A stretch of 64,000 bases of DNA from Patescibacteria group bacterium (GTDB taxonomy: Bacteria > Patescibacteriota > Microgenomatia > UBA1400 > PJMF01): contig JBMORP010000006.1 in the NCBI GenBank assembly GCA_049322655.1, positions 320,410 to 384,409 on the forward strand, in the 5' to 3' direction. Positions 42,166 to 61,166 of the stretch are shown here, piece after piece. The translations under genes were made by a program, and so were the position numbers. Position 1 is the stretch's first letter; each line of letters begins with the position of its first letter. The notes under the pieces were generated by a model. The model worked only from the letters and a program-made list of their open reading frames with translations. It searched no databases and had not been told where the DNA came from.

Positions 42166-43401
42166 TTAGTAATTTACATGGAGATAATAAGTATCTTCAG
42201 AGTCATCTTTATGATCAACCTTAACATATCTGAGGTAGCCTCCGCCACACTTAATACTACCTCGATATAAGGTACCATCTCTAACTGCTTTCACCGTATA
42301 ATCACCAGAAGTTTTACTCAAGATGTCAATACCAGTATGAGGCGATCCACCATAAAATCTCTTGACTCTGGCATAATAAGTCATCCCATAACCCTGAGTA
42401 ATTAAAGCTGCATTATTAACTGGCCATTCCCAACTACCAGAAAAACCAAAGGGATCATCAGGATTATTATGCCAAATAATATCGGTAGATTTTAAATAGC
42501 CAGCAGGATTACGATGAGCCCCATCCTTGGCTACTTCAAAATGAAGGTGAGCTCCAGTAGAACAAGCAGATGGACCAGCAATAATCGAAGCAATTTTATC
42601 GCCTTGTTTCACATCTTTAACTTTGCTTTCATCACCACGGCCAGCAATAATCGACTGAATAGCTTCCAACTCAGCTAAAGTCTTGGCTAATTCTGATTGA
42701 TATTTAGCTTCATTATTTTTAGTCTCACTCAGTAGATATTGTTGATCTGCCTTTTGTGAACGAAGAGATTCTTGCAAATTCTCTAGAGAAATCTTTTTTA
42801 GTTCTAGCTCTGTTTGTTTGTCTTCCTTGAGTTGTTTTTGTTCATCATATTCAAGTCGTTGAGTTTCAGTTCTAGCCATCACCTCAGCAGTCTGTTTTTG
42901 TGCCAAAGATAAGTATCTCAAGTTGGCAATAACATCTGTCAAAGACTCTGAACCAAGTAACTGTAAACTAGGGCTAGTTCTACTTTGTTTATATTGAGCC
43001 TGAACTCGCTCAATCAAGACTGTTCCCAGTCTATCTAACGAATAACCCAAGCCCTTAATTCTTTCAGTTAACTCGGTAACCTGATTTTCCAGTTTAAATA
43101 TTTCTGATTTGGTTAGATCAACTTGAAGTTGCTGAAGAGAAATCTGTCCATTTAATAAATTAATGGTACTAGTCAAGGTAGTAGCTTGAGTTTGGGCATC
43201 GGCAATTTTTTGTTCCCAACAGACCTGTTTCTTTTTATTACATTCATAATAATCTGTCTCTGATTGAGTAGCCGAAGAACAAACAATACTGGCACAATCA
43301 TCTGCTTGAATAGTTTGAGCTTGGTCAAAAGAAACAAACCACAATCCACCCAACAAAATTGGTAGCAACCAGAGGAAAATGATCTTTTTAGATAATTTCA
43401 T
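42166..43401 (-). CDS. EnvC-like murein hydrolase activator/M23 peptidase (coiled-coil + LytM domain)
   Basis: Long coiled-coil N-half; C-terminal M23 with GAHLHFEV (HxH). It is immediately downstream of ftsEX. Confidence 0.75.
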   Translation of the reverse strand: MKLSKKIIFLWLLPILLGGLWFVSFDQAQTIQADDCASIVCSSATQSETDYYECNKKKQVCWEQKIADAQTQATTLTSTINLLNGQISLQQLQVDLTKSEIFKLENQVTELTERIKGLGYSLDRLGTVLIERVQAQYKQSRTSPSLQLLGSESLTDVIANLRYLSLAQKQTAEVMARTETQRLEYDEQKQLKEDKQTELELKKISLENLQESLRSQKADQQYLLSETKNNEAKYQSELAKTLAELEAIQSIIAGRGDESKVKDVKQGDKIASIIAGPSACSTGAHLHFEVAKDGAHRNPAGYLKSTDIIWHNNPDDPFGFSGSWEWPVNNAALITQGYGMTYYARVKRFYGGSPHTGIDILSKTSGDYTVKAVRDGTLYRGSIKCGGGYLRYVKVDHKDDSEDTYYLHVNY

Positions 43402-43413
43402 CCTTACCCCATT

Positions 43414-44286
43414 TTAACGTCTTTTCAACATTCGTCGAGCAGCCATCAAACTAGCCCCAGCTCCTAACATCACCGCCAACAAAGTACCAACTCCAAGCTG
43501 ATAAATAAAGAAATCAATTGATAAAGGGAAACTAACAATTACCCCCAAGAAACTCTGTAACCACGGAGTTGCATAGAGTAAAAATCCATACATTACTCCC
43601 CAGCCCAATAATGATCCCATCACCCCATAAAGAGCACCTTCCATCACAAAAGGGCCGCTCACATACCAATTCGTGGCCCCAATCACTTTCATTACTGCAA
43701 TTGCATGTCTTCTGGCAGAAATCTTCATACTCATCAGGGTGACAATCACCAAGAATGAGACTAAGCCCAAAGTCGAGGTTACCGCCAAACCAACAGCTCT
43801 AACAGCCGAAGTCCATTGCTGAATATTTTTAATAATATCTTCTTGGTAAACCACATCATCTACCCCTTTAAAACTAGCCAAATCTTCTTGAATCAAAGCT
43901 AAAGAAGTAGCATCCTTACCAGAGACTTCGATACTAGCCGGCAAAATATCTGCTGTCACCAACTCCAGTAAGAGAGGATTATCTTTGTGATCTTGTTTAT
44001 AAAACTCTAAAGCTTGCTCTTTGGACACAATCTTGACTTCTGCTACATAGCTTTTGCTCTTCATTTCTTCAGCAATTCGATCAACTTCGGTGGAAGCAGT
44101 GCCGACCTCAAAGAAAGCAATTACTTGAGGTCTAGTCTCAAAAAACTTCAGCACTGTATCAGTACCCAAAATAAATAAAGAAAAAACATAACCAACAAAA
44201 AAAGTGACTGTAATCACTAATAAAGCTAAAGTACTCTGGTAAGGAGATCGTCTAATCGCCACTAATGCATCTTGAAGTTTTTTCAT
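43414..44286 (-). CDS. ftsX: Cell-division ABC transporter permease FtsX
   Basis: 4-TM topology with a large first extracytoplasmic loop; it overlaps the ftsE stop (ATGA). Confidence 0.8.
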   Translation of the reverse strand: MKKLQDALVAIRRSPYQSTLALLVITVTFFVGYVFSLFILGTDTVLKFFETRPQVIAFFEVGTASTEVDRIAEEMKSKSYVAEVKIVSKEQALEFYKQDHKDNPLLLELVTADILPASIEVSGKDATSLALIQEDLASFKGVDDVVYQEDIIKNIQQWTSAVRAVGLAVTSTLGLVSFLVIVTLMSMKISARRHAIAVMKVIGATNWYVSGPFVMEGALYGVMGSLLGWGVMYGFLLYATPWLQSFLGVIVSFPLSIDFFIYQLGVGTLLAVMLGAGASLMAARRMLKRR

Positions 44287-45224
44287 GACTTTTTTTCTTC
44301 CTTATCTGCTTTACTGGTTTTCTTGAAAAAAGGTAAGGAAAAACCAAATTTTTTAGGTTTGTTTTCGTCGGCTGGCTTTTTTGTTTGATCAGGCTGTTTA
44401 ATAAAATCCTCAATTAGATCTTGATCTTCAGTGTGTTCAGGCTTGCGCTTATCTTTATTAACCGGCTGTTTGTTTTCCTTCTTATCGATTTTTTGAGGTG
44501 ATGGTTTTGCTGGAGTTTTTTCTGCTAATTTGGGCGAGTCTTTTTGAGCAACCTGCTTGGGAGCAGAATCACTTTTTAAGACTCCTTTGTCCAGTTTAAT
44601 AATTCTTTCTTTAGCCAGGTCATCAAGAACAACTACATCATGAGTAGCCAAAATAATCGTGGTACCTAATTTATTGATTTGCTTAAGCAACTTGATAATG
44701 GCTAAACTTGATTCTCTGTCCAAATTTCCGGTTGGCTCATCAGCAAAAATCAAACTTGGGCCAGTGGCCAAAGCCCGAGCTATACTCACTCTTTGAGCTT
44801 CACCTCCAGATAATTGCTTGGGAAACATCAAAGCTTTTTCAGTCAAAGACACCAAATTTAACAGATCAGTCACTCTGGATTCAATTTCAGCTGTTGGCTT
44901 CCCAATAATCGATAATGGTAAAGCAATGTTTTCCCAAACATTCAACTCTGGTAGTAAACGGTAATCTTGAAAAACTACGCCGATTTTCCTTCTATGAGCA
45001 GGTAATTGGGAAGCGGGCAAGTTATTAATCACTGCATCTTTATAAATAACTTCACCCTCACTAGGAACTAAATCTTTAATCAATAGATTCATCAAGGTAG
45101 TCTTACCACTGCCAGATGGACCAGCAACAATCACAAAATCACCAGAATCAAGATGAAATGAAACATCTTTAAGGGCAACATCCCCATTGCCAAATTTTTT
45201 GGTTACGGACACAAAACTAAGCAT
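44283..45224 (-). CDS. ftsE: Cell-division ABC ATPase FtsE with a roughly 90-aa Lys/Pro-rich C-terminal extension
   Basis: Walker A GPSGSGKTT, signature LSGGEAQR and Walker B IFADEPTGNLD, followed by a KPSPQKIDKKENK… tail. Confidence 0.9.
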   Translation of the reverse strand: MLSFVSVTKKFGNGDVALKDVSFHLDSGDFVIVAGPSGSGKTTLMNLLIKDLVPSEGEVIYKDAVINNLPASQLPAHRRKIGVVFQDYRLLPELNVWENIALPLSIIGKPTAEIESRVTDLLNLVSLTEKALMFPKQLSGGEAQRVSIARALATGPSLIFADEPTGNLDRESSLAIIKLLKQINKLGTTIILATHDVVVLDDLAKERIIKLDKGVLKSDSAPKQVAQKDSPKLAEKTPAKPSPQKIDKKENKQPVNKDKRKPEHTEDQDLIEDFIKQPDQTKKPADENKPKKFGFSLPFFKKTSKADKEEKKS

Positions 45225-45286
45225 ATTTGTAAATCTATAATAACAAACTCAGTACCGAGAAAACTAGTGTAAAAAAAAGTAATTTC

Positions 45287-45886
45287 TTACTCTTCAACTG
45301 GAGGCTCGGCCTTGACCTCAACTACCTGGATTCGGCCAACATCCATTAACCAGCCAGCTTTTTGCCCTTTAAAAGTTTCTCCCCAAACCTTAACTTGCAT
45401 GCCCACCAATTTATCCAAATCAGTAATTGAAGAAGTCAAGTAAACTGTTTGGCTTTCACCACCCTCTCTCAAAAGTCGATGTGAACCTTCACCATCAACG
45501 CCTCCTTCAGCCAGATAACCTTCAGCACTATCTTTAAAAGTTTGATCATCCTTGATGCCAAAAACATCGCCTGCTTTGACTACATCACCAGCCACTTGTT
45601 GATCAGCCTGAGGGGATTCAGTGGCACTTGTCTTCATTTTAAGTTTAAAAGCGCCAAAACCGGTCCCAAAACCAGCAGCAAGAGCGACAAAAACTACTAC
45701 AGCTAACATCTTTTTTTGTTGAGATTGCATATCTTTTTTTTCTTTTTCTGTTGTTAAATTTAAAGTCTTAATGCCAATAGAAGACAAGTCATGATTGTGC
45801 CTCACATCCCGAGCTTCGTCAAGGGTAGTGGTTGCAGGTGAACCATCCAAATTTTCTGTTCTTATTTTGGGCTTAGTCTCTGACAT
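45287..45886 (-). CDS. Hypothetical membrane-anchored protein
   Basis: 199 aa with a central TM and no motif. Confidence 0.4.
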   Translation of the reverse strand: MSETKPKIRTENLDGSPATTTLDEARDVRHNHDLSSIGIKTLNLTTEKEKKDMQSQQKKMLAVVVFVALAAGFGTGFGAFKLKMKTSATESPQADQQVAGDVVKAGDVFGIKDDQTFKDSAEGYLAEGGVDGEGSHRLLREGGESQTVYLTSSITDLDKLVGMQVKVWGETFKGQKAGWLMDVGRIQVVEVKAEPPVEE

Positions 45887-45916
45887 ATACCAATTATCAT
45901 ACCCTATTTCAAACTG

Positions 45917-46999
45917 CTATGTGAGTTTTATTTCTTCAAAAATAAATCGATCCAAATCACCAGCTAAAACCCCAACCGTATCAGAAGTCTCAACGGCTGT
46001 TCTGGTATCTTTAACTAACTGATAAGGATGTAAAACATAATTTCTAATTTGAGTACCCCAGCTAGCATGTTGATGCTCGCCTTTTTGTTTGCTCAACTCC
46101 GCCAACTGTTTTTCTTCCTCAAGAATAGCTAATTTTGATTTCAACATTTTTAAGGCTTTTTCTCTGTTTTGCACCTGACTTCTTTCTTCTCTACATCTAA
46201 CCACAATTCCAGTGGGTAAATGCCTCAATTCCACCGCGCTATTAACTTTATTAACACTTTGACCACCAGCCCCACCAGCCCGCATAAATGACCACTCTAA
46301 ATCTGTATCTTTAAGCTCTATGTCACTATCATCATCTAAAAGTGGCGCTACCTCAACTAAAGCAAACGAAGTTTGTCTTAAGTTGTCTGCATTAAAAGGA
46401 CTCAATCTAACCAACCGATGAGTTCCTTGCTCTTTTTTTAAAAAACCGTAAGCATTATTAACTCTAACCTCAAAAATCATTTCTTTAATCCCAGCATCTT
46501 CACCTCTAACCTCAGAAATTAATGAATACTTCCACCCTTTTCTTTCAAAATATCTGGCATACATCCTAGCTACCATTTCTGCCCAATCCATAGCTTCAGT
46601 CCCTCCCTGCCCTGGATGAACAGAAAGAATCGCAGCCTCAACATCATATTTGCCAGTTAAATAGGTCTCAAGCTCAAGCTCTTTAAAAAGTTTAACTAAT
46701 TGCCAATATTTAGTTGTTGTTTCTTGGGCAAAGGCTTGTTGCTCTTGGGTCTCCAAATCCAAAAAAGCTTGAATATCACCAACCAAAGTGGCTAGTTGTT
46801 GGTAACTATCTAATTGAGCTTGCAAACCAGATACTCGTTGCATTTTTTGTTGAGCATCACCCCGCTCCCAAAATCCCGGTTCACCAGATTCAGTTTGCAA
46901 GGCTTTTAATTCTGCTTGTTTGGTGGGTTGATCGATTTCTGTTAGAAACTGTTTCACCTGCTCAACCAAGTTTGTTAATTCCTCAAAAGTAAGTTCCAT
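45917..46999 (-). CDS. prfB: Peptide chain release factor 2 (no programmed +1 frameshift)
   Basis: SPF tripeptide (RLSPFN) and GGQ (GGAGGQSVN); continuous 360-aa ORF from the ATG at 46997-46999. Confidence 0.9.
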
Positions 47000-47004
47000 A
47001 ACTT

Positions 47005-48633
47005 TTATTCTAACTCCTCTGTCCAGACAAAACTGTCATTAACAATATTTTGATAAATTAAACCAGACTGTTTTTGGATAAAAACTTGATCAACTGCTGT
47101 GGCCATAACGAAATCAGTCACTACTTCAACTTGGTTATTTTCTGGCACAGTCACCAAAAATCCATACTGATAATAAACTTGGCCATTAGCTATTACTAAC
47201 TCTGTTTTATCCCAATCTGTTAAAACCTGCTCTCCGACTTTAACACTAACCAATTCCAGATTAGTAGAAGTAATTAGGCGGTAGTAATTAATATAACCCA
47301 AATGAGAAGCTGTTTTATAAAATTCATTATTAGTAGGTAAAACAGGACGATCAGTTACTGTTGCTTGGTTATTAAAATTAACTTGTAAGCGTAATAATTG
47401 GTTATTTTTACTAAGATCAAGAGTTCTCGTCACCCAACGGTTGGCTTTATTTACCCCCACATTAGATTCGACTGGGAAAATAAAAACCTCTTCCTGGTTA
47501 TAGGCATATAAATTTCCAGCTACTTTTAGTTTGACAAAATTGTTTTCTACCAAATCATCTACAGCAAAAAACTGAATTTCTCGCCAAAAAGCTCCTTTTA
47601 AAAACGCCTTTAAGAAAATAATTAATTCTTGGTTTGATAAAGAATTAATTTTCAAAAACAAAGCTGTTTGCAACGCCGACAAGTTATTTTCTTTTTGATT
47701 ACTACCAGGGAAAAACTCAGTTCGATCAGCTCGAAGTAACTCAGCCAACTCATCGGCACTAATCACTGTTTTTTTATCTGGCAGATAGATCTCGCCCAGC
47801 AAAGCAATGGTTTTTTCTAACGTAGCAAAGTTCAAAGCAATTACCCCATCATAATATTGAGGATCACCTTCAATATTGGCAAAAAACCAAAGAATATCTT
47901 TGGCCGTTGTCGAAAAATCAGCTGACCAATTAGCATCATGAAGTGGTAAACCTTTGCCCTCACTAAGGTAAAAATCATAACCTGGTGGTGACTGTTTGGT
48001 TGGACTTAAGCCACTCGGATCATAAATATCACGGATCACAAAACGCAAAAAATCTGGTTTGGCAAAATTTAAGACAGCATAAGAACCCATAAAACCACCA
48101 GTAGCTCTAAGTTCAGTAGAATTTTGAAAAATTAATAAATATTTTTTTCCAGCTTCTTTCTCTTGGTTGATTACTCTTAATAAACCAACTAACTCTTTGA
48201 GTTCAGCTGGTTCATAGCCATTTTTAGTAAAAACTTGGTTGATTAACCAAGATTTTTCTCCCTGAGCTAACATTTCCTCACTATGAATTAAAAAATTAGC
48301 TAAGTGATAATTAGTCATTAACCAAGTTAAAGGATCGGTTTGGTTTTTAGCCTCAGCAATCAAGCTGACTGTTTCCTGACCTAAAAGAATATTCTCTCGC
48401 CAAAATTCAAGAAGTGGGAGTTTTTTCAAACTCAAAACTGAAAACAACCCTGTCACAGGCCTAACCACGGCAAAAGAAAAACTTGCTAAACCAAGGTTGG
48501 CTTTGATAATAGACAACCAAGCCACCAGAGTAAAAACTATACTTAGTAACCAAATAATGACTAACCTAATCGCAACCTTCTTTAACCATTTAAATTCCAA
48601 AATCGACTTTACTGAAAAATAAGAATTAATCAT
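47005..48633 (-). CDS. DUF4012-like membrane-anchored extracytoplasmic protein
   Basis: N-terminal TM and the [11 protein letters not shown] motif seen in DUF4012-family proteins of cell-wall loci; family recalled from memory. Confidence 0.45.
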
Positions 48634-48641
48634 CTATATCT

Positions 48642-48649
48642 TGTATAAT
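48642..48649 (+). promoter_or_regulatory. Extended -10 element TGTATAAT upstream of the alpha/beta-hydrolase operon
   Basis: Perfect TGnTATAAT 27 nt upstream of the ATG at 48677; the ORF-track start at 48641 is a TTG inside this element. Confidence 0.4.
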
Positions 48650-48676
48650 AACGCAAGTAAGAATAAAAAATCTTGT

Positions 48677-49393
48677 ATGAATCCTCAATCAACCAAAGTT
48701 GTTTTGCTTCATGGCTGGACTCCAGATACCGCAGTGATCGAACGCTGGCAACCTTTGAAAAAATTATTTGAAAAAAACAATTACCAAGTTTATCTATGGA
48801 AAATCCCAGGACTAACCACCAATCCAAATAAAACTTTTACTCTCGAAGAATATCAAGTTTGGTTGAAAACAAAAATCAAACCATTAAAAAAAGTGGTTTT
48901 AGTTGGTCATTCCTTTGGAGGGCAATTAGCTACTATTTTTACTGAACAAAATCCAGAATTAGTGGAAAAACTAATTTTAATCAATAGTGCTGGCATTAGA
49001 GACTTCACTTGGCAAAAAATCTTGAAAAGAAATATGCTTAAGTTTTTAGCCAAAATTGGTTTTATTTTCAAAAAAATAAATTTTTTTAGAAAAATTATTT
49101 ATAAATTAATTAGAGAAAAAGATTATTTGGAGGCTAACCACTTTCAAAGAGTAACTATCAACAATGCTCTCAGTTTTTCCGTTAAACCACTCTTAACTAA
49201 CATCAAAACTCCCACTTTAATTTTATGGGGGGAAAATGACCAAACTACCCCTCTTTATTTAGGTAAAGTTTTTAAAAACAATCTTCCCCACAATGACTTT
49301 ATTGAGCTACCAACTAGACATTCACCTGTTTATACTCACCCCCAACTAGTTTTCAATCATATTAATCAATTTATTAAAGAAAAAAAACTATGA
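48677..49393 (+). CDS. Alpha/beta-fold hydrolase
   Basis: Nucleophile elbow VVLVGHSFGGQLA (GxSxG) and an HGW oxyanion region near the N-terminus. Confidence 0.7.
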   Translation: MNPQSTKVVLLHGWTPDTAVIERWQPLKKLFEKNNYQVYLWKIPGLTTNPNKTFTLEEYQVWLKTKIKPLKKVVLVGHSFGGQLATIFTEQNPELVEKLILINSAGIRDFTWQKILKRNMLKFLAKIGFIFKKINFFRKIIYKLIREKDYLEANHFQRVTINNALSFSVKPLLTNIKTPTLILWGENDQTTPLYLGKVFKNNLPHNDFIELPTRHSPVYTHPQLVFNHINQFIKEKKL

Positions 49394-50850
49394 CCATTGT
49401 GGTGATTCTTTGTATTATCAGTACCTTGCCTTTTACCTTGGTGAGGTTATTAAGATGGTTAGCTTGGTCACAACAAAAAGAATACCGTTCAGATCGAGTC
49501 TGGAGTTTTTTACTTTCTCCAGAGGGTAGCAGTGAATTACTTAGGCTTATTCCTCAAAAAAAAGATTTTTCTAGAACAGGTTTAAAAAGACCAGTCATTA
49601 CTATTAGATCGATACTGGTATTTTTTATTAGTTTAGTGTTACTAGGCTTTATTTTTGCCACTAGTCTTAACCTTGGTTGGTGGTGGCTACCTTTTTTAAT
49701 TTATATTTTTATCCCGTTGTTACCAGTTATTAGTAGTTTCGTCACCGAAATAATTAAATTATTGATTAGCTTGGTGTTACTATTCATCGCTCAAAAAAAA
49801 GTAAATAAACATCAACCCAAAATAGTTGGTGTAACCGGTAGTTATGGCAAAACTGCCACCCGCCATTTAGCAACTAGTGTCTTAGCTCAGCAATATACTG
49901 TTTACACACCACCAAAATCTCACAATACACCTTTAAGTATTGCTTTAGATTTGATTAAAAATTACCAAAACCAAGATATTTTGTTTCTTGAATTTGCTGC
50001 TTATAAACAAGGAGAAATCAAGAAACTAGCTCATTGGTTTAAACCAGATATTACCATTATTACTGGTCTAACTGCTCAACACTTAGCTTTATTTGGTAGT
50101 TTGGAAAACATTGTTAGGGCTAAGGGAGAACTAGTCAAAGCAACCAAAATAGACGGTAAAGTCTTATATAACCAAATGGATCCTGGAACAGAAAAAATCT
50201 GTGCCGAAGATCAAAGTAAACAACATCAGCCTTACTCTCCTCAACTCCAACAAACACTGTTGAGTCAAGAAAAACTAGATCATAAAGCTCGACTGAGTGT
50301 CTATTGGGGAGAAGATAAGCTTAATACTAATCTAATTGGCCTTCATCATACAGAAACAATTGCTGCAGCAATTAGTTTGGGTTTAATATTAAATATTCCC
50401 AAACAAAAAATCATTACAGGGATTAAATCATTCGTACCAGAGAATGTCTTTACTCAAGCTTATTTTCACCCTACTACCCAAACCCTCATTATTAATGATG
50501 GCAAAACCACTAACCCCAAGGGTTTTCGCTCTGCGCTAGCTATCTTGAATCACTTTAAAAAACAGGGGAAAAATACAATTTTAATTACCGGCGGAGTGGT
50601 AGATTTGGGTGATGAAACAGAATCAATTCACTTGGATTTGGCGAGAACTGCCAAACCAATTGTTGATTTAGTCTTTTATACAGGCTCTGACGGTAAAGCA
50701 GCTTTCAAAGAAGTATTTGAACAAAGAATGACTGACCACTTACCCACTTTAGTGTCCTTAATTCCAAAATTTAATCAAGATGATGTCATTTTAATCGAGG
50801 GCCATATTCCTTTGGAATTAACTAAATTACTGAAAAGAAAAAATGATTAA
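49390..50850 (+). CDS. Mur-ligase-family protein (MurF-like central and C-terminal domains) whose N-terminal substrate-binding domain is replaced by a roughly 130-aa 4-TM anchor
   Basis: P-loop KIVGVTGSYGKTATRHLA right after the hydrophobic helices; C-terminal Mur ligase domain (…INDGKTTNPKGF…). It overlaps neighbouring genes, which indicates an operon. Confidence 0.65.
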   Translation: MTIVVILCIISTLPFTLVRLLRWLAWSQQKEYRSDRVWSFLLSPEGSSELLRLIPQKKDFSRTGLKRPVITIRSILVFFISLVLLGFIFATSLNLGWWWLPFLIYIFIPLLPVISSFVTEIIKLLISLVLLFIAQKKVNKHQPKIVGVTGSYGKTATRHLATSVLAQQYTVYTPPKSHNTPLSIALDLIKNYQNQDILFLEFAAYKQGEIKKLAHWFKPDITIITGLTAQHLALFGSLENIVRAKGELVKATKIDGKVLYNQMDPGTEKICAEDQSKQHQPYSPQLQQTLLSQEKLDHKARLSVYWGEDKLNTNLIGLHHTETIAAAISLGLILNIPKQKIITGIKSFVPENVFTQAYFHPTTQTLIINDGKTTNPKGFRSALAILNHFKKQGKNTILITGGVVDLGDETESIHLDLARTAKPIVDLVFYTGSDGKAAFKEVFEQRMTDHLPTLVSLIPKFNQDDVILIEGHIPLELTKLLKRKND

Positions 50851-52063
50851 TGCCAGTCTAGGAGCTCATTACTCAAACAGATTTATTTGGCTAAGCTTAA
50901 AGCAATTGGTTTTAGCTGGTCTTGGACTTAACCAACCCCAATACTCAGAAAAACTAGCCAATTTAATAACCGATTTTTTCCCAGGAAAAGTCGAGTTTGT
51001 TTATAAAGGTCGTGATGCGATTGAACTTTGTCTAAAACAATATGGCATTACTAATCGTCGTGATGGAGTTATTACCCAAGCTTTTACTTGTTCAGCCATT
51101 GAAGAAGGAATCGTAAGAGCTGGAGCTACACCCATTTATGCTGACCTTGGCCACCAGCAACTAAATCTAAATACTGAAACCTTGGAACAAGTAAAAAATA
51201 ATCAGCCAAACTTAAAAATAAAAGCTGTACTCGTTCAACATAGTTTGGGCCATCCAGCAGAAATTAAAGCGATTAAAAACTGGTGCCAAAAAAACCAAGT
51301 TTTGCTAATAGAAGATCTAGCTCAAAGTTTTGGCGCCACGGATTCTGCCGACAACTTGCTAGGTAAAAATGCTGATGCAATTATCTTGTCGTTTGGCCGA
51401 GACAAAATCATCGATGCTGTAACTGGTGGTGCCGTGATTTTTCGCACTCAACCCCGAAACTACCAACCAAAAAAATTTGCTTTACCCAATAAAAAAATCA
51501 TTATCAAAGACTTGAGTTACCCTGTTTTAACCTGGTTGATTAGACATACCTACCACCTAAAAATAGGTAAAATCATCCATTTTTTACTTAAAAAAACTCA
51601 CTGGTTTTACTCACCAATCAAGGCACCTACTAAGCAAATCACTCTATTGCCCAGCTATTTTGTTCAACTAGCTTTACTACAATTGATTGAATTGGATACT
51701 AATCACCAACATCGCCAAGAAATAAGTGAATTTTATCTTAAGGAATTAACTAACTTACCAATCCAACTCTTCACCACTCAACAGAACCTTGAGAAAGCTT
51801 CATTACTTAGATTTGCTTTTACTACCCCACACTGGTCTGAAATAATGACCGATTGGCAACAACACCAAATTTACTTAGCTGATCGATGGTACCGACAACC
51901 AGTAGACTGTGGCCAACTACATTGTTCAAGATTTTACCAAGAAAAATCATGTCCTAATGCCGAAAAAATTAGTCAACAAATTCTCAACCTCCCAACTCAC
52001 AGACAAATTTCTCTCAAAGCTGCCCAAAAAATTGTGGCTATAATAAAAAAACATGTCAATTAA
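50843..52063 (+). CDS. DegT/DnrJ/EryC1/StrS-family PLP-dependent (sugar) aminotransferase
   Basis: …ILSFGRDKIIDAVTGGAV… (SxxxxK PLP lysine context); 406 aa. Confidence 0.75.
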   Translation: MINASLGAHYSNRFIWLSLKQLVLAGLGLNQPQYSEKLANLITDFFPGKVEFVYKGRDAIELCLKQYGITNRRDGVITQAFTCSAIEEGIVRAGATPIYADLGHQQLNLNTETLEQVKNNQPNLKIKAVLVQHSLGHPAEIKAIKNWCQKNQVLLIEDLAQSFGATDSADNLLGKNADAIILSFGRDKIIDAVTGGAVIFRTQPRNYQPKKFALPNKKIIIKDLSYPVLTWLIRHTYHLKIGKIIHFLLKKTHWFYSPIKAPTKQITLLPSYFVQLALLQLIELDTNHQHRQEISEFYLKELTNLPIQLFTTQQNLEKASLLRFAFTTPHWSEIMTDWQQHQIYLADRWYRQPVDCGQLHCSRFYQEKSCPNAEKISQQILNLPTHRQISLKAAQKIVAIIKKHVN

Positions 52064-53081
52064 TTTTCAAGTTATCGAGACCGAACAAAACTGGGAAAGA
52101 ATTATTAGTTATTTTCCTGAAGCCAATTTTTTACAATCTTTTTATTGGGGTGAATTTGAAAAAAAATTAAACAAAAAAGTTTTCAGGTTTGCTCTTTTTA
52201 AAAAAAATCAACCAATTATTGCTTTACAAATCATCAAAGAAACAGCCAAAAGAGGCAACTACCTCACCATTGCCGGTGGCCCATTGCTTGACTGGGAAAA
52301 ACAATTAACCAACCACAACTTTTCCCAATTAATCAATTTTTTAAAGACTTTAGCTCAAAAAGAAAACTGTAGTTTTATTCGCCTCAGACCTCAAACCTTA
52401 GATACTGAAGAGCTCAGACAACAACTCAAAAAATACCAACTTATTCCTTCGCCAATGCATCTAACTGCCGATCTCACCCTCCAGTTAGATCTAACCAAAT
52501 CGCCAACCCAACTTCTCCAAGAAATGAGAAAAAATACTCGTTATGAAATCAAACAAGCAGAAAAAAAAGGCATCACTGTAATCCAAACACAAGATTCACA
52601 CAAAATCAAAGGGTTTTATCAACACCAACTGGAACTGGCTAATAAACACAACTTTGTGCCTTTTAGTTATGAATTTTTGTTAGCTCAATTTGAAACTTTT
52701 GTGGAAAAAAATAAAGTTACTTTATTTTCTAGTTACTTAGAAAATAAGTTACTAGCTTCAGCCTTTATTATTTTTTACAACCAAGAAGCTGTCTATCACT
52801 ATGGTATTTCTACTGAGGATAATTACAAACTTCCTGGAGCCTATGCTTGTCAGTGGGCCGCTATCCAGGAAGCCCAAAAAAGAGGTTGCAAAAAATACAA
52901 TTTTTGGGGGATTGCTCCCAAAGATGAGCCTCAGCATCGTTTTGCTGGGGTGTCATTATTTAAACGCGGTTTTGGTGGTGAAGAAGTAGCCTACTTACCA
53001 GCCCATGATTTACCAGTCTCAACGTTCTATTGGGCCACCTATTTCTTTGAAAGTTTTAGAAAAAAAATCAGAAAACTATAA
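52053..53081 (+). CDS. FemAB-family aminoacyl-tRNA-dependent peptidyltransferase (peptidoglycan/polymer side-chain formation)
   Basis: …NFLQSFYWGEFEKK…, YHYGISTEDNYKLPGAYACQWAAIQEAQKRGCKKYNFWGI are FemX/FemAB-like blocks; 342 aa. Confidence 0.6.
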   Translation: MSINFQVIETEQNWERIISYFPEANFLQSFYWGEFEKKLNKKVFRFALFKKNQPIIALQIIKETAKRGNYLTIAGGPLLDWEKQLTNHNFSQLINFLKTLAQKENCSFIRLRPQTLDTEELRQQLKKYQLIPSPMHLTADLTLQLDLTKSPTQLLQEMRKNTRYEIKQAEKKGITVIQTQDSHKIKGFYQHQLELANKHNFVPFSYEFLLAQFETFVEKNKVTLFSSYLENKLLASAFIIFYNQEAVYHYGISTEDNYKLPGAYACQWAAIQEAQKRGCKKYNFWGIAPKDEPQHRFAGVSLFKRGFGGEEVAYLPAHDLPVSTFYWATYFFESFRKKIRKL

Positions 53082-54080
53082 ATTTTCATAAAGATCAACA
53101 TAAAGCTGTGCGATTCGATGCCAACTATGTTGTTTGGCAAATTCATAAGCTTGTGTCAATTTATCTTGATTAAAATGAGTATTCTTTTGCAAAATAGTTA
53201 ATTTTCTTGACAACTCACTACTATTTTTAACCACTTGAACAAATTTACCTAGAGGAGATAAGGAAAAATAATCTCTTTTGAGAGGATTACTGTAGGCAGC
53301 CACGACTAAACATTTATAAGCAAAAGCTTCTAAAACTGATAAATACCCACCAGCAAAAACAAGCTTAGCTTTTTTTAAATAAGGCATTGGATTTCTAAAA
53401 CCAGTCACTTCACCAAATAAAGCAGCTTGTTCTCTTAACTCACCATCTCCACAAAAAACCACCTGACCATGCCAAGATTGGTCTTTTAAACTTTGGAGCA
53501 ACAATGGTAACCCAGTGTCATAACTCAACCGACCAACATATAACAAAATATGCTGTTTAAGATAATCTTTTTGGGGAAGATGAACCCCACCATAGATCAC
53601 TAGATCGGCAGAAAAACCATAATATTTTTCCAAATATTTACCAACGGCAATCGTTTTAGTTGACAACCATACGCCCAACTTACGCCACAGTTTATTTTTT
53701 TGCGGTAAAGGAAATTTACCTTCCCAACCATGAAAAGTTGTCACTATTGGTTTTCGCCAAAACAATAATTTAAAAGGTAGATACCAAATAAAAACATCAT
53801 GAATATGAATTACTTCAGCTTCTTTAATCAGAGCAAAATATTTTTTCAACAGTTGCCACCAAATATTTAACAGTCCTAAAAACCTTGTTTTAGGGTAACT
53901 AAATCGATAAATTTCTATGCCAGTTTTTTTTTCAAAAATGGCTGATTTTTTAGTTTGTTCAGTAATAATTTTGATTGAGTATTTTTTTTTGTTTAAATAA
54001 TGAACTGTCTCCCAAACATGACGTTCAACTCCACCTATGTTGGGAAAAAATGATGGCGTAAAAACAAGAATTTTTTTCAT
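53076..54080 (-). CDS. GT-B glycosyltransferase, family 4-like
   Basis: N-terminal Glyco_trans_4-like region and a C-terminal EX7E-like GGYLSVLEAFAYKCLVVA. Confidence 0.55.
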   Translation of the reverse strand: MKKILVFTPSFFPNIGGVERHVWETVHYLNKKKYSIKIITEQTKKSAIFEKKTGIEIYRFSYPKTRFLGLLNIWWQLLKKYFALIKEAEVIHIHDVFIWYLPFKLLFWRKPIVTTFHGWEGKFPLPQKNKLWRKLGVWLSTKTIAVGKYLEKYYGFSADLVIYGGVHLPQKDYLKQHILLYVGRLSYDTGLPLLLQSLKDQSWHGQVVFCGDGELREQAALFGEVTGFRNPMPYLKKAKLVFAGGYLSVLEAFAYKCLVVAAYSNPLKRDYFSLSPLGKFVQVVKNSSELSRKLTILQKNTHFNQDKLTQAYEFAKQHSWHRIAQLYVDLYENL

Positions 54081-54117
54081 TAAAAAACAATAATTTTAAA
54101 AGTTATAATAACCTATC

Positions 54118-55068
54118 ATGAAGATTAGTTTAGTTATAACGATTTTTAATGAAGAATCAACTCTAGATTTACTATTAACTGCTATCAAAAAACAAACACA
54201 ACAAATCGATGAACTAATTATTGTTGATGGAGGTTCAACCGATCGAAGCTGGGCAATTTTAAAAACTTATCAACAACAAAAATTTTTCAAAAATAAATTA
54301 AAAATTTATCAAAAAACTGGCAATAGAAGTACTGGTAGAAACTTAGCCATTAAAAAAACTACTAACGAACTAATTGCCATTACTGATGCTGGCTGCATCC
54401 CCAATAAAGATTGGTTAGAAAAACTAGTAAAAAAACAGCACCAAACTCAAGCTCCAGTAGTTGCTGGTTACTACTACGGTCTAGCAAAAAACAACTTTCA
54501 ACAAGCAGTTATTCCTTATGTATTGGTGATGCCAGACAAAATCGATCACAATTTTTTACCAGCCACTCGGTCAATGTTAATTAGCAAAAAAACTTGGCAA
54601 GAAGTCGGCGGCTTTAATGAACAACTCAACCACAATGAAGATTATGCTTTTGCCAAAGAACTAGAAAGTAGAAAAATTAAAATTGCCATTGCCCAAGCAG
54701 CCCAAGTAGCTTGGTTGCCCAGAAAAAACTTATGGTCTTTCATCGTAATGATTTACCGCTTTGCTTTGGGTGATGCTGAAGCAGAAATCTTCAGACCAAA
54801 AGTAGGACTAATCTTGGCTAGATATTTTTTATTAATTTTAGTTTTATTTTTTAGTTTGCTTGGTTTATTTTTTCCACCAGTTAATTTTTTAACTAGTTAT
54901 GGTTTAACTATACTGCTGTTAGCAATAATTAGTTATGGTAGCTGGGCTATAGCAAAAAATAAAAAATATGTTGTCACTGGTTGGTGGTGGTTACCACTAT
55001 TACAAATCTCGGCTGACTTAGCAGTCATTACTGGCACTGTGACCGGTTCATTAAAAAAACTAAATTAA
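54118..55068 (+). CDS. GT-A glycosyltransferase family 2 with C-terminal membrane helices
   Basis: ISLVITIFNEESTL…LIIVDGGSTD (DxD region); 3-4 TM at the C-terminus. Confidence 0.7.
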   Translation: MKISLVITIFNEESTLDLLLTAIKKQTQQIDELIIVDGGSTDRSWAILKTYQQQKFFKNKLKIYQKTGNRSTGRNLAIKKTTNELIAITDAGCIPNKDWLEKLVKKQHQTQAPVVAGYYYGLAKNNFQQAVIPYVLVMPDKIDHNFLPATRSMLISKKTWQEVGGFNEQLNHNEDYAFAKELESRKIKIAIAQAAQVAWLPRKNLWSFIVMIYRFALGDAEAEIFRPKVGLILARYFLLILVLFFSLLGLFFPPVNFLTSYGLTILLLAIISYGSWAIAKNKKYVVTGWWWLPLLQISADLAVITGTVTGSLKKLN

Positions 55069-55629
55069 CTCTTCAAAATCAACCACATCAATAAAATCAA
55101 TCCCAGCAGCAGCTGCTGCCAACTGGTCGTTCTCACTATCACCAATCATTAAATAATCTTTTTTACTTGTGCCAGGAATAAAGATTTGGTCAAAACCAGC
55201 CGGTCTGGGCTTGGGATAATCAACCGCATCTCTAGTAATAATGTTCCTAAAGGACTGCTCTAAACCCAAATCTTGTAAAACAGGTTGAATGGTTTCCAGG
55301 TGGTTGCTAGTCCATAAAAAAAATTGAAAACGAGTTTGATTCTCCTGAATAAACTGAACTAACCTCATGTTTGGTTCATGGTTGGTATAGTTTTGTTGTT
55401 CATATTCTTTGGTAAAAGTTTGAAAGGCCTCAATCGCCGGCTGACCAACCCGATCAATAACCTCTGCTTGGAATACATAAGGATTACCATTAATGACTAA
55501 ACTAGTATCGCCAGTCAGTTCTTTAGCTAATTTTAACCACCCCTCACGAGAATGACTCCAATCAATAATGAGCGTATCAATCGTTCGGTCAAAATCAAAA
55601 ACTAAATATTTTTTGCTGGTTAAATTCAT
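55060..55629 (-). CDS. HAD-superfamily hydrolase
   Basis: Motif I VFDFDRT (DxDxT) and motif IV-like MIGDSENDQLAAAAAG. Confidence 0.55.
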   Translation of the reverse strand: MNLTSKKYLVFDFDRTIDTLIIDWSHSREGWLKLAKELTGDTSLVINGNPYVFQAEVIDRVGQPAIEAFQTFTKEYEQQNYTNHEPNMRLVQFIQENQTRFQFFLWTSNHLETIQPVLQDLGLEQSFRNIITRDAVDYPKPRPAGFDQIFIPGTSKKDYLMIGDSENDQLAAAAAGIDFIDVVDFEELI

Positions 55630-55638
55630 TGTCTTTTT

Positions 55639-56847: not shown

Positions 56848-56849
56848 AA

Positions 56850-57389
56850 CTACTCTCTTTCTTTGGACGTTCCCGTCACTGCATCATAACATTTGGGAAT
56901 CATGCCTACCGGGAAATTATATTTATCAACTATTTCACAGTAAATCAAGCCAACCCCATTGTGAGCAATTTGCCAACCATCCGCTGTTTTAGCCGCAAAG
57001 TAAATCCCACCTTTATCCCCCTCACCCACATTCACAAATCCAGTCATAAACTCCAAACTACTTTCCGCTTCAGCGGTAATCTGCACCTCTGCTAGATCCA
57101 TTTTAAAACTTTCAGCAAGCTTTTCTCTCACTTGCTGAACATCATCAGCTGTGAGACCGCTTTTTTGAGCTTGTTCTGTTAATGGATTCGCAAAGTCATC
57201 CTCATCTGCAGGAATGCCCACCTGAGGCACTACACTTCCCTGATTTTCTCCAGTCGAGCCAGCATTAATTGTTTTTAACTCTAAATTGTTATCTCCCTCT
57301 GGAGCCTGACAACCAGCAAATACCACTGCAGCAACCAAAACCACTAACAACAAAAATGACTTTTTCATAACAAGCTTAAGTCTACCCAC
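56850..57389 (-). CDS. Lipoprotein of unknown function
   Basis: Signal peptide with lipobox VFAGC-Q; 179 aa. Confidence 0.5.
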   Translation of the reverse strand: MGRLKLVMKKSFLLLVVLVAAVVFAGCQAPEGDNNLELKTINAGSTGENQGSVVPQVGIPADEDDFANPLTEQAQKSGLTADDVQQVREKLAESFKMDLAEVQITAEAESSLEFMTGFVNVGEGDKGGIYFAAKTADGWQIAHNGVGLIYCEIVDKYNFPVGMIPKCYDAVTGTSKERE

Positions 57390-61154: not shown

Positions 61155-61166
61155 AAGTTGTCTAAA

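What the first reader, a model, noticed from the sequence alone, without database searches (positions are those of the whole stretch)
48677..53081. Operon of alpha/beta hydrolase - membrane-anchored Mur-ligase paralog - DegT aminotransferase - FemAB transferase
Four overlapping or tightly spaced plus-strand genes (stop/start overlaps at 49390, 50843 and 52053). The Mur-ligase-family protein keeps the P-loop/central domain and the C-terminal domain but has a roughly 130-aa, four-helix membrane anchor where MurE/MurF carry their UDP-substrate-binding N-domain. This is reminiscent of membrane-bound amide ligases such as PgsB/CapB rather than cytoplasmic Mur enzymes. It is translationally coupled to a PLP sugar aminotransferase and a FemAB-type tRNA-dependent aminoacyl transferase. 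Together these suggest synthesis of an amino-sugar- or peptide-decorated envelope polymer, or a non-canonical peptidoglycan stem/bridge, that has not been described. The cluster continues with DUF4012, GT4, GT2, HAD and a possible permuted ATP-grasp ligase (47005-57389).
Basis: partly seen in the sequence, partly recalled or inferred. Interest (0 to 1): 0.6.

Follow-up and report, generated by a model that had tools for sequence, protein, structure and literature searches.

The report
Membrane-anchored MurF ligase cell-wall operon
This four-gene operon most likely finishes the peptide stem of the cell-wall precursor, using an undescribed membrane-anchored form of the enzyme MurF; in this bacterial group, two unusual enzymes sit where the D-Ala-D-Ala ligase gene normally lies.

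Summary
Four overlapping plus-strand genes (48677-53081) encode a Ser-Asp-His alpha/beta hydrolase, a 486-aa Mur ligase, a DegT-type PLP enzyme and a FemX-like transferase. In the ligase, three transmembrane helices and a conserved cytosolic loop replace the UDP-binding N-domain.

The ligase is not PgsB/CapB-like. By sequence and fold it belongs with MurF. It is one member of a large family of membrane-anchored MurF-type ligases found in many phyla. I found no description of this family in the searched literature. A hydrolase gene lies directly upstream in 76 of 80 surveyed genomes. The ligase occupies the murF slot of dcw clusters in Poribacteria, Chloroflexota and Woesebacteria. It is therefore probably the organism's MurF equivalent, not an extra paralog, although the whole genome could not be checked.

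The family has two clades. One is followed by ddl. The other, found only in candidate-phyla-radiation (CPR) bacteria and including this window, is followed by DegT plus FemAB in exactly the same slot, and has lost two residues conserved in Mur ligases. Whether DegT and FemAB only branch the stem peptide or replace Ddl is open.

This is a new variant of a known kind, of moderately high interest.

The parts
48644..48649 (+). Perfect -10 hexamer TATAAT in the 43-nt divergent intergenic region, 27 nt before the hydrolase ATG. It is a candidate operon promoter.
   Evidence: Read directly from the sequence. The consensus scan found no more promoter-like sites than shuffled sequence gives, so this is only a candidate.
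48677..49393 (+). Cytoplasmic alpha/beta-fold serine hydrolase (238 aa). It is the obligate partner of the membrane-anchored ligase. The catalytic triad is S79 (in HSFGG), D188 and H215, with an HGW oxyanion motif at 12-14.
   Evidence: Pfam Abhydrolase_1 1.2e-18. The triad is invariant in 81 homologues from many phyla and in the 28-sequence alignment A5. A homologue lies directly upstream of the ligase in 76 of 80 GTDB loci. The family profile is closest to lipid and carboxyl esterases in the PDB (6i8w at 141 bits). The NCBI name is 'alpha/beta fold hydrolase', MFZ5438069.1.
49390..49809 (+). N-terminal membrane domain of the ligase (residues 1-140). It comprises TM1 (2-29), a K/R-rich cytosolic loop (23-71) with the motif Q28-x3-Y32-x3-R36, TM2 (72-95), a short helix (100-106) and TM3 (110-141). 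TM3 runs straight into the P-loop strand. This domain stands where MurF domain 1 (the UDP-MurNAc binding domain) would be.
   Evidence: Hydropathy and the AlphaFold model with pLDDT 95.5. Q28 and Y32 are invariant in 65 sequences, and the Q...Y core is visible in Clostridia, Poribacteria, Bacteroidota and Chloroflexota. There is no Pfam match. A phmmer search of 1.84 billion representatives finds this domain only at the N-terminus of proteins of about 440-530 aa, or in fragments.
49810..50850 (+). MurF-type catalytic part of the ligase: the central ATP-binding domain and the C-terminal domain. Conserved residues are the P-loop GVTGSYGKT at 147-155, E201, H231, K245 and D370. The protein belongs to clade T. 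It has HLA instead of HLE after the Mg-binding His. It has no Arg at the HRL/GR position (F354). It has GLHHTET instead of G-x-H-N-x-x-N, NDGKTTNP instead of DDSYNxNP, and a C-terminal EGHIP.
   Evidence: Pfam and NCBIfam, PDB profile search, residue alignments to T. maritima and A. baumannii MurF, Foldseek, motif tables and the neighbour-joining tree.
50843..52063 (+). DegT/DnrJ/EryC1/StrS-family PLP enzyme (406 aa). The PLP lysine K188 (in SFGRDK) and D158 are conserved. The substrate is unknown.
   Evidence: Pfam 129.9 bits. The best NCBIfam matches, PseC and LegC, lie far below their cut-offs. The best PDB matches reach only about 49 bits, with K188 aligned to the PLP lysine motif. K188 and D158 are invariant in 21 operon homologues. 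The gene is present in all 22 clade T operons.
52053..53081 (+). FemAB-family (FemX-sized, 342 aa) aminoacyl-tRNA-dependent aminoacyl transferase, with a conserved F303-K304-x-G-F-G-G motif.
   Evidence: Pfam FemAB 109.4 bits. The best NCBIfam hit is Weissella-type FemX (NF047883, 60 bits, below cut-off). PDB matches are FemA, FemX and an aminoacyl-tRNA-dependent peptide synthase. Conservation is shown. The NCBI name is 'lipid II:glycine glycyltransferase FemX'.
42166..48633 (-). Conserved upstream neighbours on the opposite strand: M23 peptidase, FtsX, FtsE, a 199-aa protein, peptide chain release factor and DUF4012. This is cell-division and wall-hydrolysis context, not part of the operon.
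   Evidence: Pfam. The same block occurs in 7-9 of the 22 clade T loci.

Best explanation
The operon encodes the last cytoplasmic-face steps of peptidoglycan stem-peptide synthesis, in a form typical of many candidate-phyla-radiation (CPR) bacteria.

The 486-aa protein is a MurF-type ATP-dependent amide ligase. Its UDP-binding domain 1 has been replaced by three transmembrane helices plus a conserved cytosolic loop. The active site is therefore held directly against the inner face of the membrane.

It most likely does the MurF job: it adds the C-terminal unit (normally D-Ala-D-Ala) to a MurNAc-tripeptide precursor next to MraY. It is probably the genome's only MurF equivalent.

It works with a co-translated Ser-Asp-His esterase-like hydrolase whose substrate is unknown. 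The FemX-like enzyme then uses an aminoacyl-tRNA to put a branch residue on the stem peptide. The DegT-like PLP enzyme acts on the same branch or on its precursor.

Shown: the domain architecture, MurF-clade membership, conservation of catalytic residues, operon conservation and the murF-slot position in relatives.

Inferred: the substrates, the order of steps and the housekeeping role in this particular genome.
For: **MurF-clade membership.** TIGR01143 murF scores 180 bits, against 69 for the next family, murD. The family profile scores 235 bits against solved MurF, compared with 97 for MurD. Foldseek's top ten hits are all MurF. The P-loop, E201, H231 and D370 are conserved.

**Membrane anchor.** The N-domain occurs only in this architecture.

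**Housekeeping role.**
- In Poribacteria the ligase is the only MurF-like gene in a complete dcw cluster, between murE and ddl-mraY.
- In Chloroflexota it is adjacent to mraY.
- In CPR loci L008, L015 and L020 it is next to mraY-ftsW-murG.
- Fifty of the 80 GTDB loci have ddl in the locus, mostly immediately downstream.
- The Butyrivibrio hungatei orthologue is the protein annotated MurF.
- No second Mur ligase lies in the 64-kb window.
- No second family member appears on the seven contigs over 100 kb that carry this clade.

**Operon conservation.** The four genes are present in 22 of 22 loci, with FemAB detected in 21. The hydrolase triad, the PLP lysine and the Fem F-K motif are conserved. 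Neighbours are FtsEX/M23, PBP2, MreC and FtsQ.
Against: - The window covers only 64 kb of a 652-kb contig, so a canonical murF or ddl elsewhere in the genome cannot be excluded.
- The murF score is below NCBI's cut-off (180 versus 288.6), and PGAP names the protein only 'Mur ligase family protein'.
- Clade T has lost an acidic residue next to the Mg-binding His and the Arg at the start of the C-domain. Clade D and solved MurFs keep both. The window's subclade has also lost the N-x-x-N motif. Either chemistry or substrate may differ.
- ddl is never seen in a clade T locus.
- The roles of the hydrolase and the PLP enzyme are not explained by the canonical pathway.
Confidence: 0.55

Rival explanations
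1. DegT and FemAB replace Ddl. In clade T organisms the unit that the ligase adds is not made by D-Ala-D-Ala ligase. Instead, a tRNA-dependent FemAB-like peptide-bond former makes it together with the PLP enzyme. One possible route is aminoacylation of an amine or D-amino acid, with PLP chemistry on the free alpha-amine. The ligase would still be the MurF equivalent, but the stem terminus would be built differently.
For: In one conserved CPR synteny frame (class II aaRS-SerRS-hydrolase-ligase-[X]-FtsQ), X is ddl in L040 and L062. X is DegT-FemAB in L007, L017, L031, L039 and L080. In dcw clusters, X before mraY is ddl in Poribacteria and DegT-FemAB in Woesebacteria. ddl and DegT/FemAB never co-occur in about 78 loci. 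Neighbour type follows ligase clade and active-site motifs: no Ddl-linked ligase falls in clade T and no DegT/FemAB-linked ligase falls outside it. At least 20 contig-length coincidences link Ddl hits to clade D ligases, and none link them to clade T contigs.
Against: No genome-wide absence of ddl could be shown. The contig-length test uses truncated top-120 lists that are biased towards clade D lineages. tRNA-bound residues are L or Gly, whereas DD-transpeptidases, which lie next to the operon in L007, need a D-D terminus. A FemX that simply branches the MurF product explains the adjacency without new chemistry. The C-domain motif DDSYNxNP is canonical in most clade T members.
Confidence: 0.17
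2. Accessory paralog. The ligase is an extra, neofunctionalised Mur-ligase relative. Together with the PLP aminotransferase, the Fem-like transferase and nearby glycosyltransferases, it decorates a secondary envelope polymer or amino sugar with amino acids. A normal MurF exists elsewhere in the genome.
For: The ligase has lost several residues that are otherwise invariant in Mur ligases. Its murF score is below cut-off. DegT enzymes usually aminate nucleotide-keto-sugars. GT4, GT2, HAD and DUF4012 genes flank the operon in the window and in close relatives. In Labrys, an alphaproteobacterium expected to carry a canonical dcw murF, a clade D member is evidently an additional copy.
Against: The flanking glycosyltransferases are conserved in only 3-5 of 22 loci. 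No dehydratase or oxidoreductase that would make a keto-sugar lies in any operon. The operon occupies the murF slot next to mraY-ftsW-murG in Woesebacteria. It sits in the same frame as the ddl-linked form in other CPR genomes. No second family member was seen on long contigs.
Confidence: 0.12
3. Lipid-linked acceptor. Because the UDP-binding domain is gone and the catalytic domain is fixed to the membrane, the ligase acts after MraY. It would add the terminal unit to undecaprenyl-PP-MurNAc-tripeptide (lipid I or II), as MurT/GatD acts on lipid II. This reading can be combined with any of the other explanations.
For: Domain 1 is replaced by a TM bundle, and TM3 continues directly into the P-loop strand. 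The cytosolic Q/Y/R motif near the membrane-cytosol boundary is invariant. MurT, the known Mur-ligase relative without an N-domain, uses lipid II; that point rests on my own knowledge, though MurT structures appear among the matches. The hydrolase partner is most similar to lipid esterases.
Against: There is no direct evidence. Anchoring could serve only to channel UDP-MurNAc-pentapeptide to MraY. The conserved loop could itself bind UDP. Gene order (ligase before mraY) is the canonical one.
Confidence: 0.15

Closest known systems
MurF, UDP-MurNAc-tripeptide:D-alanyl-D-alanine ligase (TIGR01143; PDB 3zl8, 4qf5, 4cvm, 1gg4)
   Same: The central ATP-binding domain and the C-terminal domain match, as do the P-loop, the Mg-binding Glu and His, and the conserved Asp. 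MurF is the best match by sequence profile and by fold. Relatives occupy the murF position of dcw clusters and lie next to ddl.
   Different: Domain 1, which binds UDP-MurNAc, is replaced by three TM helices and a conserved loop. The P-loop is GSYGKT. There is an obligate upstream serine hydrolase. In this clade the HLE acidic residue and the GR/HRL arginine are lost, and ddl is replaced by DegT plus FemAB. The score is below the curated murF cut-off.
MurT of the MurT/GatD lipid II amidation complex
   Same: It is a Mur-ligase relative that lacks the UDP-binding N-domain. It works on a membrane-bound precursor with a partner enzyme encoded next to it.
   Different: MurT is soluble, carries a DUF1727 C-domain and pairs with a glutaminase. 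Sequence similarity is weak: 15 bits in NCBIfam and 67 bits against the family profile.
PgsB/CapB poly-gamma-glutamate synthetase
   Same: It is a membrane-associated amide ligase of the Mur-ligase superfamily.
   Different: No PgsB/CapB family matched at E<=0.01, and none appears among the PDB matches. The catalytic domains here are MurF-like, and the gene context is peptidoglycan and cell division.
Weissella viridescens FemX and staphylococcal FemX/A/B
   Same: The FemAB fold, the FemX-like size (342 aa) and the F-K catalytic motif are shared. A role downstream of MurF on the stem peptide fits the gene order.
   Different: Similarity is only about 29-60 bits. The gene is always paired with a DegT-like PLP enzyme, which has no counterpart in known Fem systems. 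It sits where ddl sits in sister lineages.
vanHAX-type precursor remodelling modules
   Same: These also group a ligase making the terminal dipeptide or depsipeptide with a hydrolase. The Labrys locus adds an M15 D-Ala-D-Ala dipeptidase.
   Different: Here the module includes its own adding enzyme and is in most lineages the housekeeping copy. The hydrolase is an alpha/beta-fold esterase-like enzyme, not a zinc peptidase.

Membership tests
MurF (TIGR01143 / Mur ligase family) | Central ATP-binding domain with P-loop, Mg-binding Glu and His | tested here: met
   Mur_ligase_M 4.6e-23. G150, S151, K154, E201 and H231 are invariant in 65 sequences.
MurF (TIGR01143 / Mur ligase family) | C-terminal Mur ligase domain with the conserved Asp of the DDxYNxNP motif | tested here: met
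   Mur_ligase_C 1.8e-07, 32.5 bits against a cut-off of 28.4. D370 is retained in NDGKTTNP.
MurF (TIGR01143 / Mur ligase family) | N-terminal domain 1 that binds the UDP-MurNAc part of the substrate | tested here: not met
   The profile match starts at murF position 64 and at solved-MurF residue 68. Residues 1-140 are three TM helices and a loop.
MurF (TIGR01143 / Mur ligase family) | Score at or above the curated family cut-off | tested here: not met
   180.3 bits against a cut-off of 288.6. The Poribacteria relative also falls short, at 254 bits.
MurF (TIGR01143 / Mur ligase family) | Mur-ligase invariant Arg at the start of the C-domain and the N-x-x-N adenine-binding motif. Residue identities are from my memory of MurC/MurD mutagenesis work. 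| tested here: not met
   The window protein has F354 where A. baumannii and T. maritima MurF have GR, and GLHHTET where they have GEHNVQN. Clade D relatives keep HRL.
MurF (TIGR01143 / Mur ligase family) | Gene in the murF slot of the dcw cluster or next to ddl | tested here: inconclusive
   This is met in relatives. The window itself has no dcw genes. The operon lies next to ftsEX, an M23 peptidase gene and prfB instead.
MurF (TIGR01143 / Mur ligase family) | D-Ala-D-Ala adding activity; sole MurF of the genome | not testable with these tools
   Testing this needs biochemistry and the whole 652-kb contig. Only 64 kb plus about 10 kb of right flank could be read.
PgsB/CapB | Sequence membership in the poly-gamma-glutamate synthetase family | tested here: not met
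   No such family appears among the 21 NCBIfam matches at E<=0.01 or among the PDB matches.
FemAB family (PF02388) | Pfam score above the gathering cut-off and a conserved catalytic F-K motif | tested here: met
   109.4 bits against a cut-off of 24. F303 and K304 are conserved in at least 95% of 20 homologues. The assignment of the motif's role is from memory.
FemAB family (PF02388) | Use of aminoacyl-tRNA and of a peptidoglycan precursor as acceptor | not testable with these tools
   Only the context is suggestive. The SerRS and class II aaRS neighbours are general synteny that is also present in ddl-type loci.
DegT/DnrJ/EryC1/StrS aminotransferases (PF01041) | Pfam score above cut-off, with the PLP lysine and the PLP-binding Asp | tested here: met
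   129.9 bits against a cut-off of 19.8. K188 aligns with the SF..K lysine of solved enzymes. K188 and D158 are invariant in 21 homologues.
DegT/DnrJ/EryC1/StrS aminotransferases (PF01041) | Nucleotide-keto-sugar substrate | not testable with these tools
   No equivalog model is reached (PseC 101 bits against 423.5). No keto-sugar-forming enzyme lies in any of the operons.
alpha/beta hydrolase fold serine hydrolases | Nucleophile elbow G-x-S-x-G with Asp and His of the triad | tested here: met
   S79, D188 and H215 are invariant in 81 and in 28 sequences.

The most novel reading that the evidence does not exclude
In a large part of the candidate phyla radiation, the end of the peptidoglycan stem peptide is not supplied by D-Ala-D-Ala ligase. 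A FemAB-like aminoacyl-tRNA-dependent transferase and a DegT-like PLP enzyme make the unit instead. A membrane-embedded MurF-type ligase that has lost its UDP-binding domain then attaches it, possibly to a lipid-linked precursor after MraY. An esterase-like hydrolase acts as an obligatory fourth component. That would be a tRNA-dependent and partly membrane-bound variant of a pathway thought to be universal.
Probability: 0.12. Interest if true: 0.9.

Novelty: new variant of a known kind. Interest (0 to 1): 0.62.

Why it matters
MurF is treated as a soluble, universally conserved three-domain enzyme and as an antibiotic target. This analysis points to a widespread membrane-anchored form without the UDP-binding domain, always paired with a serine hydrolase. 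It occurs in gut Clostridia, Bacteroidota, Chloroflexota, Poribacteria, cyanobacteria and CPR bacteria. If confirmed, this changes the picture of where the last cytoplasmic step takes place and how its substrate is recognised.

The CPR-specific clade, with DegT plus FemAB in the place of ddl, gives a concrete, testable handle on cell-wall chemistry in ultra-small episymbiotic bacteria, which has hardly been studied. It also bears on how these bacteria respond to cycloserine, glycopeptides and beta-lactams.

Tried and rejected
**Searches for a second MurF or Ddl in the same genome**
- A blastp search for a second Mur ligase in the window found none.
- Pfam annotation of 30 other window ORFs, looking for dcw, ddl or mraY genes, found none.
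- Walking beyond the window failed on the left edge, whose protein is not on record. The right flank is a ribosomal protein operon.
- A Ddl profile search and a clade D ligase profile search were used to look for contig-length matches with clade T genomes. The method works for Ddl and clade D (at least 20 shared contig lengths), but no clade T contig appeared. Both lists are top-120 truncations, so the result is only weak evidence.

**Literature**
- Eight full-text searches and four papers read gave no description of a membrane-anchored MurF or of a hydrolase in the murF operon. One search was swamped by muscle MuRF papers, and one was rejected for syntax.

**Hypotheses dropped**
- The idea that NDGKTTNP (MurD-like) marks the DegT-linked type was rejected. 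Most DegT-linked ligases have the canonical DDSYNxNP.
- The idea that nearby tRNA-Ser genes or SerRS point to serine as the Fem substrate was rejected. The tRNA genes are conserved only in close relatives, and SerRS also flanks ddl-type loci.
- The idea that an M15 dipeptidase replaces the hydrolase in Labrys was rejected. The hydrolase is present there too.
- The ATP-grasp gene upstream in Woesebacteria L020 is not found in any other locus.

- ORF 55639-56847, the 'permuted ATP-grasp', has no PDB or Pfam match and is present only in the closest relative.
- A plasmid search found only canonical murF genes.
- Single-sequence AlphaFold of the hydrolase gave pLDDT 52.5 and was not used.
- The afdb50 fold library was unavailable.

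Full report
**1. What is in the sequence**

One search lists four + strand ORFs: 48641/48677..49393, 49390..50850, 50843..52063 and 52053..53081. Their stop/start overlaps are 4, 8 and 11 nt. They are bounded by a divergent DUF4012 gene (47005-48633, minus strand) and a convergent GT4 gene (53076-54080, minus strand).

The 43-nt upstream intergenic region holds a perfect TATAAT, 27 nt before the first ATG. The generic promoter scan, however, is no richer than shuffled sequence.

The four products are exact matches to consecutive NCBI proteins of a 'Patescibacteria group bacterium' MAG on a 652,381-bp contig:
- MFZ5438069.1, alpha/beta fold hydrolase
- MFZ5438070.1, Mur ligase family protein
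- MFZ5438071.1, DegT/DnrJ/EryC1/StrS family aminotransferase
- MFZ5438072.1, lipid II:glycine glycyltransferase FemX

Pfam and NCBIfam confirm the four families.

**2. The ligase**

Pfam finds Mur_ligase_M (residues 148-329) and Mur_ligase_C (365-471), and nothing on residues 1-140.

| Comparison | MurF | Next best |
|---|---|---|
| NCBIfam, window protein | 180 bits, profile positions 64-413 of 418, cut-off 288.6 | MurD 69 bits; MurT 15 bits; no PgsB/CapB hit |
| PDB, profile of 65 family members | 206-235 bits, starting at MurF residue ~68 | MurD 97; pseudomurein ligases 81; MurT 67 |

An AlphaFold model built on that alignment is very confident (pLDDT 95.5, pTM 0.91). Its ten best Foldseek matches in the PDB are all MurF chains.

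In the model, the first 141 residues form these elements:
- a long helix at 2-29
- three short helices at 34-60
- a second hydrophobic helix at 72-95
- a short helix at 100-106
- a third long helix at 110-141, which runs directly into the P-loop strand (144-149)

With the hydropathy profile and at least nine K/R residues in loop 23-71, the simplest topology is this: N-terminus outside, three membrane spans, and both the loop and the catalytic domains inside.

The anchor is more than a tether. Q28 and Y32 are invariant and R36 nearly so in 65 sequences. The L-Q-x3-Y core is recognisable in Clostridia, Poribacteria, Bacteroidota and Chloroflexota. A phmmer search of 1.84 billion representative proteins with residues 1-140 found 100 proteins. 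All were N-termini of proteins of about 440-530 aa, or short fragments, so the domain occurs only in this architecture.

**3. The family is large and not confined to CPR bacteria**

I analysed the best 80 loci. All 80 ligases that could be read have a hydrophobic N-terminal extension of about 110-230 aa before the P-loop.

A phmmer neighbour table, supplemented by Pfam, shows an alpha/beta hydrolase directly upstream in 76 of the 80 loci. Often there is the same 4-nt overlap. One of the four exceptions is cut off by the contig end.

| Downstream context | Loci (of 80) | Lineages |
|---|---|---|
| ddl | 50 | Clostridia, Poribacteria, Chloroflexota, Bacteroidota, Omnitrophota and some CPR lineages |
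| DegT-like plus FemAB-like | 17 | MAGs labelled Pace-, Woese-, Colwell-, Magasanik-, Nealson-, Roizman-, Sacchari- and Peribacteria, plus some with evidently wrong labels |
| neither | 13 | many on short contigs |

ddl and DegT/FemAB never occur in the same locus.

**4. Evidence that this is the working MurF**

- In Poribacteria locus L029, NCBIfam identifies the order rsmH, a PBP, murE (546 bits), the hydrolase, the membrane-anchored ligase (murF model, 254 bits), ddl (343 bits), mraY, murD, ftsW, murG and murC. This is a complete dcw cluster with this ligase as its only MurF.
- In Chloroflexota chromosomes the order is hydrolase-ligase-mraY.
- In CPR locus L008 the pair lies between mraY-ftsW-murG-ftsA-ftsZ on one side and two ddl genes, murC/E and murD on the other.
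- In Woesebacteria L020 the order is murB (opposite strand), an ATP-grasp gene, hydrolase, ligase, DegT, FemAB, mraY, ftsW, murG, x, ftsA and ftsZ.
- In cultured Butyrivibrio hungatei the 526-aa orthologue is the protein annotated MurF.
- No second Mur ligase lies in the window.
- Among the 120 listed homologues, no second family member shares a contig length with the seven contigs over 100 kb that carry this clade.

Against this, only 64 kb of the genome could be read. In Labrys, an alphaproteobacterium expected to have a canonical dcw murF, the membrane form is evidently an extra copy. There it is preceded by an M15 D-Ala-D-Ala dipeptidase and the hydrolase, with an L,D-transpeptidase nearby.

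**5. Two clades**

A neighbour-joining tree of the catalytic parts separates all 22 DegT/FemAB-linked ligases from every ddl-linked one. Two sequences without informative neighbours (L026 and L036) fall with the DegT/FemAB group.

| Feature | Clade D (ddl-linked) | Clade T (DegT/FemAB-linked) | Solved MurF |
|---|---|---|---|
| After the Mg-binding His | QHLE.FGS | QHL[A/S/G]LFGS | HLE or HLGE |
| Start of C-domain | (P/E)HRL(Q/E) | no equivalent Arg at that position | GR |
| C-terminus | ENDLPDxY | EG(R/H)(I/M)P or ESRG | not compared |

The solved MurF residues come from the alignments to T. maritima and A. baumannii MurF. The five CPR members of clade D side with the non-CPR members, so the split is not simply CPR against the rest.

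Clade T has therefore lost two residues that, as I remember the MurC/MurD mutagenesis work, belong to the Mur-ligase invariants. It keeps the P-loop, E201, H231 and D370.

The window's own subclade (Pace/Woese/Colwell) has further changes: GLHHTET instead of G-x-H-N-x-x-N, and NDGKTTNP instead of DDSYNxNP. These changes are lineage-specific and do not track the DegT link.

**6. The partners**

*Hydrolase.* S79, D188 and H215 are invariant in 81 sequences and in a 28-sequence cross-phylum alignment. It is an active enzyme, not a structural relic. Its profile is closest to lipid and carboxyl esterases. The best matches are 6i8w (141 bits), PHB depolymerases, ABHD6, arylesterases, C-C hydrolases and BioH. 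NCBIfam's best hit is an EstV-type lipase. No peptidase is among the best-scoring matches.

*DegT-like protein.* It keeps the PLP lysine (K188, aligned to the SF..K motif of solved enzymes) and D158. It is remote from every characterised member, with at most 49 bits to any PDB chain.

*FemAB-like protein.* It is FemX-sized and keeps the F-K motif.

DegT and FemAB always occur together: DegT is in all 22 loci and FemAB was detected in 21.

**7. Positional alternation with ddl**

In many CPR loci the frame is class II aaRS, SerRS, hydrolase, ligase, [X], FtsQ. X is ddl in L040 and L062. X is DegT-FemAB in L007, L017, L031, L039 and L080. Before mraY, X is ddl in Poribacteria and DegT-FemAB in Woesebacteria.

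This observation, together with the clade-specific active-site changes, is what keeps the more novel reading alive. I could not test whether clade T genomes lack ddl. Contig-length coincidences link at least 20 Ddl hits to clade D ligase hits and none to clade T contigs. Both lists are truncated and biased, so this is weak evidence.

**8. Most likely mechanism**

I put 0.55 on the ordinary reading:
- A membrane-anchored MurF equivalent adds the terminal unit to the MurNAc-tripeptide precursor beside MraY.
- The FemX-like enzyme uses an aminoacyl-tRNA to branch the product.
- The PLP enzyme acts on that branch or on its precursor.
- The esterase-like hydrolase is an obligatory but unexplained partner.

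The rivals are as follows:

| Rival | Confidence | Note |
|---|---|---|
| DegT and FemAB replace Ddl | 0.17 | |
| Lipid-linked acceptor after MraY | 0.15 | can be combined with any of the others |

**9. Comparison with what is known, and novelty**

The parts are individually annotated in public databases, and some orthologues are named MurF. In eight full-text literature searches and four papers read, I found no description of a membrane-anchored MurF. I also found none of a hydrolase tied to murF, nor of a DegT/FemAB pair in the ddl position.

The protein fails three formal MurF criteria: domain 1, the curated score, and two invariant residues. I therefore file it as a new variant of the MurF kind rather than as a plain member.

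The PgsB/CapB analogy is not supported. MurT is the nearest functional analogy for a Mur ligase without an N-domain acting at the membrane.

**10. Caveats**

- ORF starts in fetched loci are my own longest-ORF calls.
- Several MAG taxon labels are unreliable.
- The functional assignment of the lost residues rests on my memory of the Mur-ligase literature.
- The tree is a simple neighbour-joining tree without support values.

Noticed in passing
window 58545-58630 (+): A tRNA-Ser with anticodon ACU (A34), supported by both ARAGORN and Rfam (56.6 bits). It is a distinct tRNA, not a copy of the neighbouring tRNA-Ser(GCU) at 57473-57560. ARAGORN found no tRNA at the syntenic place in the closest relative L010. 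A34 is unusual in bacterial tRNAs other than tRNA-Arg. The window carries four tRNA-Ser genes in all.
   Followed up: partly
It has no Pfam, NCBIfam or PDB sequence match. The only homologue found is in the closest relative (L010). The ATP-grasp claim is unverified.
   Followed up: partly
L020 7952-9241 (+): In a Woesebacteria dcw cluster, a 429-aa ATP-grasp-like protein overlaps the start of the hydrolase gene by 8 nt. Its matches are weak: 83 bits to a biotin-carboxylase model and a faint ATPgrasp_ST hit. It is thus a fifth operon member there. It could be a dipeptide ligase, but it is absent from all other loci.
   Followed up: partly
L085 8365-11584 and 15458-16885: In the complete genome of Labrys okinawensis, an M15 D-Ala-D-Ala dipeptidase gene precedes the hydrolase and a clade D membrane-anchored ligase. 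An IS200-like transposase and a YkuD L,D-transpeptidase lie nearby. This looks like an accessory precursor-remodelling module in an organism expected to have a canonical murF.
   Followed up: partly
window 9460-10683 (-): A 407-aa PLP enzyme with only a weak SHMT match (102 bits) and a weak DegT match. GlyA has been proposed as a D-alanine source in Chlamydia (title of PMC3935232, seen). This gene might therefore matter for D-Ala supply.
   Followed up: no
window 8227-9429 (+): A leucine-rich-repeat domain fused to a eukaryotic-type protein kinase domain (Pfam LRR_8, Pkinase) in a small CPR genome.
   Followed up: no
window 18110-21448 (-) and 16394-18079 (-): A 1112-aa ORF with no Pfam match lies next to a 561-aa protein with a C39-like peptidase domain.
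   Followed up: no
window 60396-62354 (-): A C-5 cytosine DNA methylase lies next to a protein that the public record marks with an MwoI_N domain. This is a probable type II restriction-modification pair.
   Followed up: no
L010, L012, L013, L017, L035 (record titles): GTDB representative MAGs labelled 'uncultured Pseudomonadales' or 'Gammaproteobacteria' carry the CPR-type operon. L010 is 79% identical to the window ligase. The taxon labels of these TPA assemblies are evidently wrong.
   Followed up: no
L007, L008 (PaaX_M genes at L007 12968-13489 and L008 11544-12425): A PaaX-like protein recurs next to the ligase in two distant CPR loci. In one it lies between DegT and FemAB. In the other it lies between the ligase and two ddl genes.
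   Followed up: no
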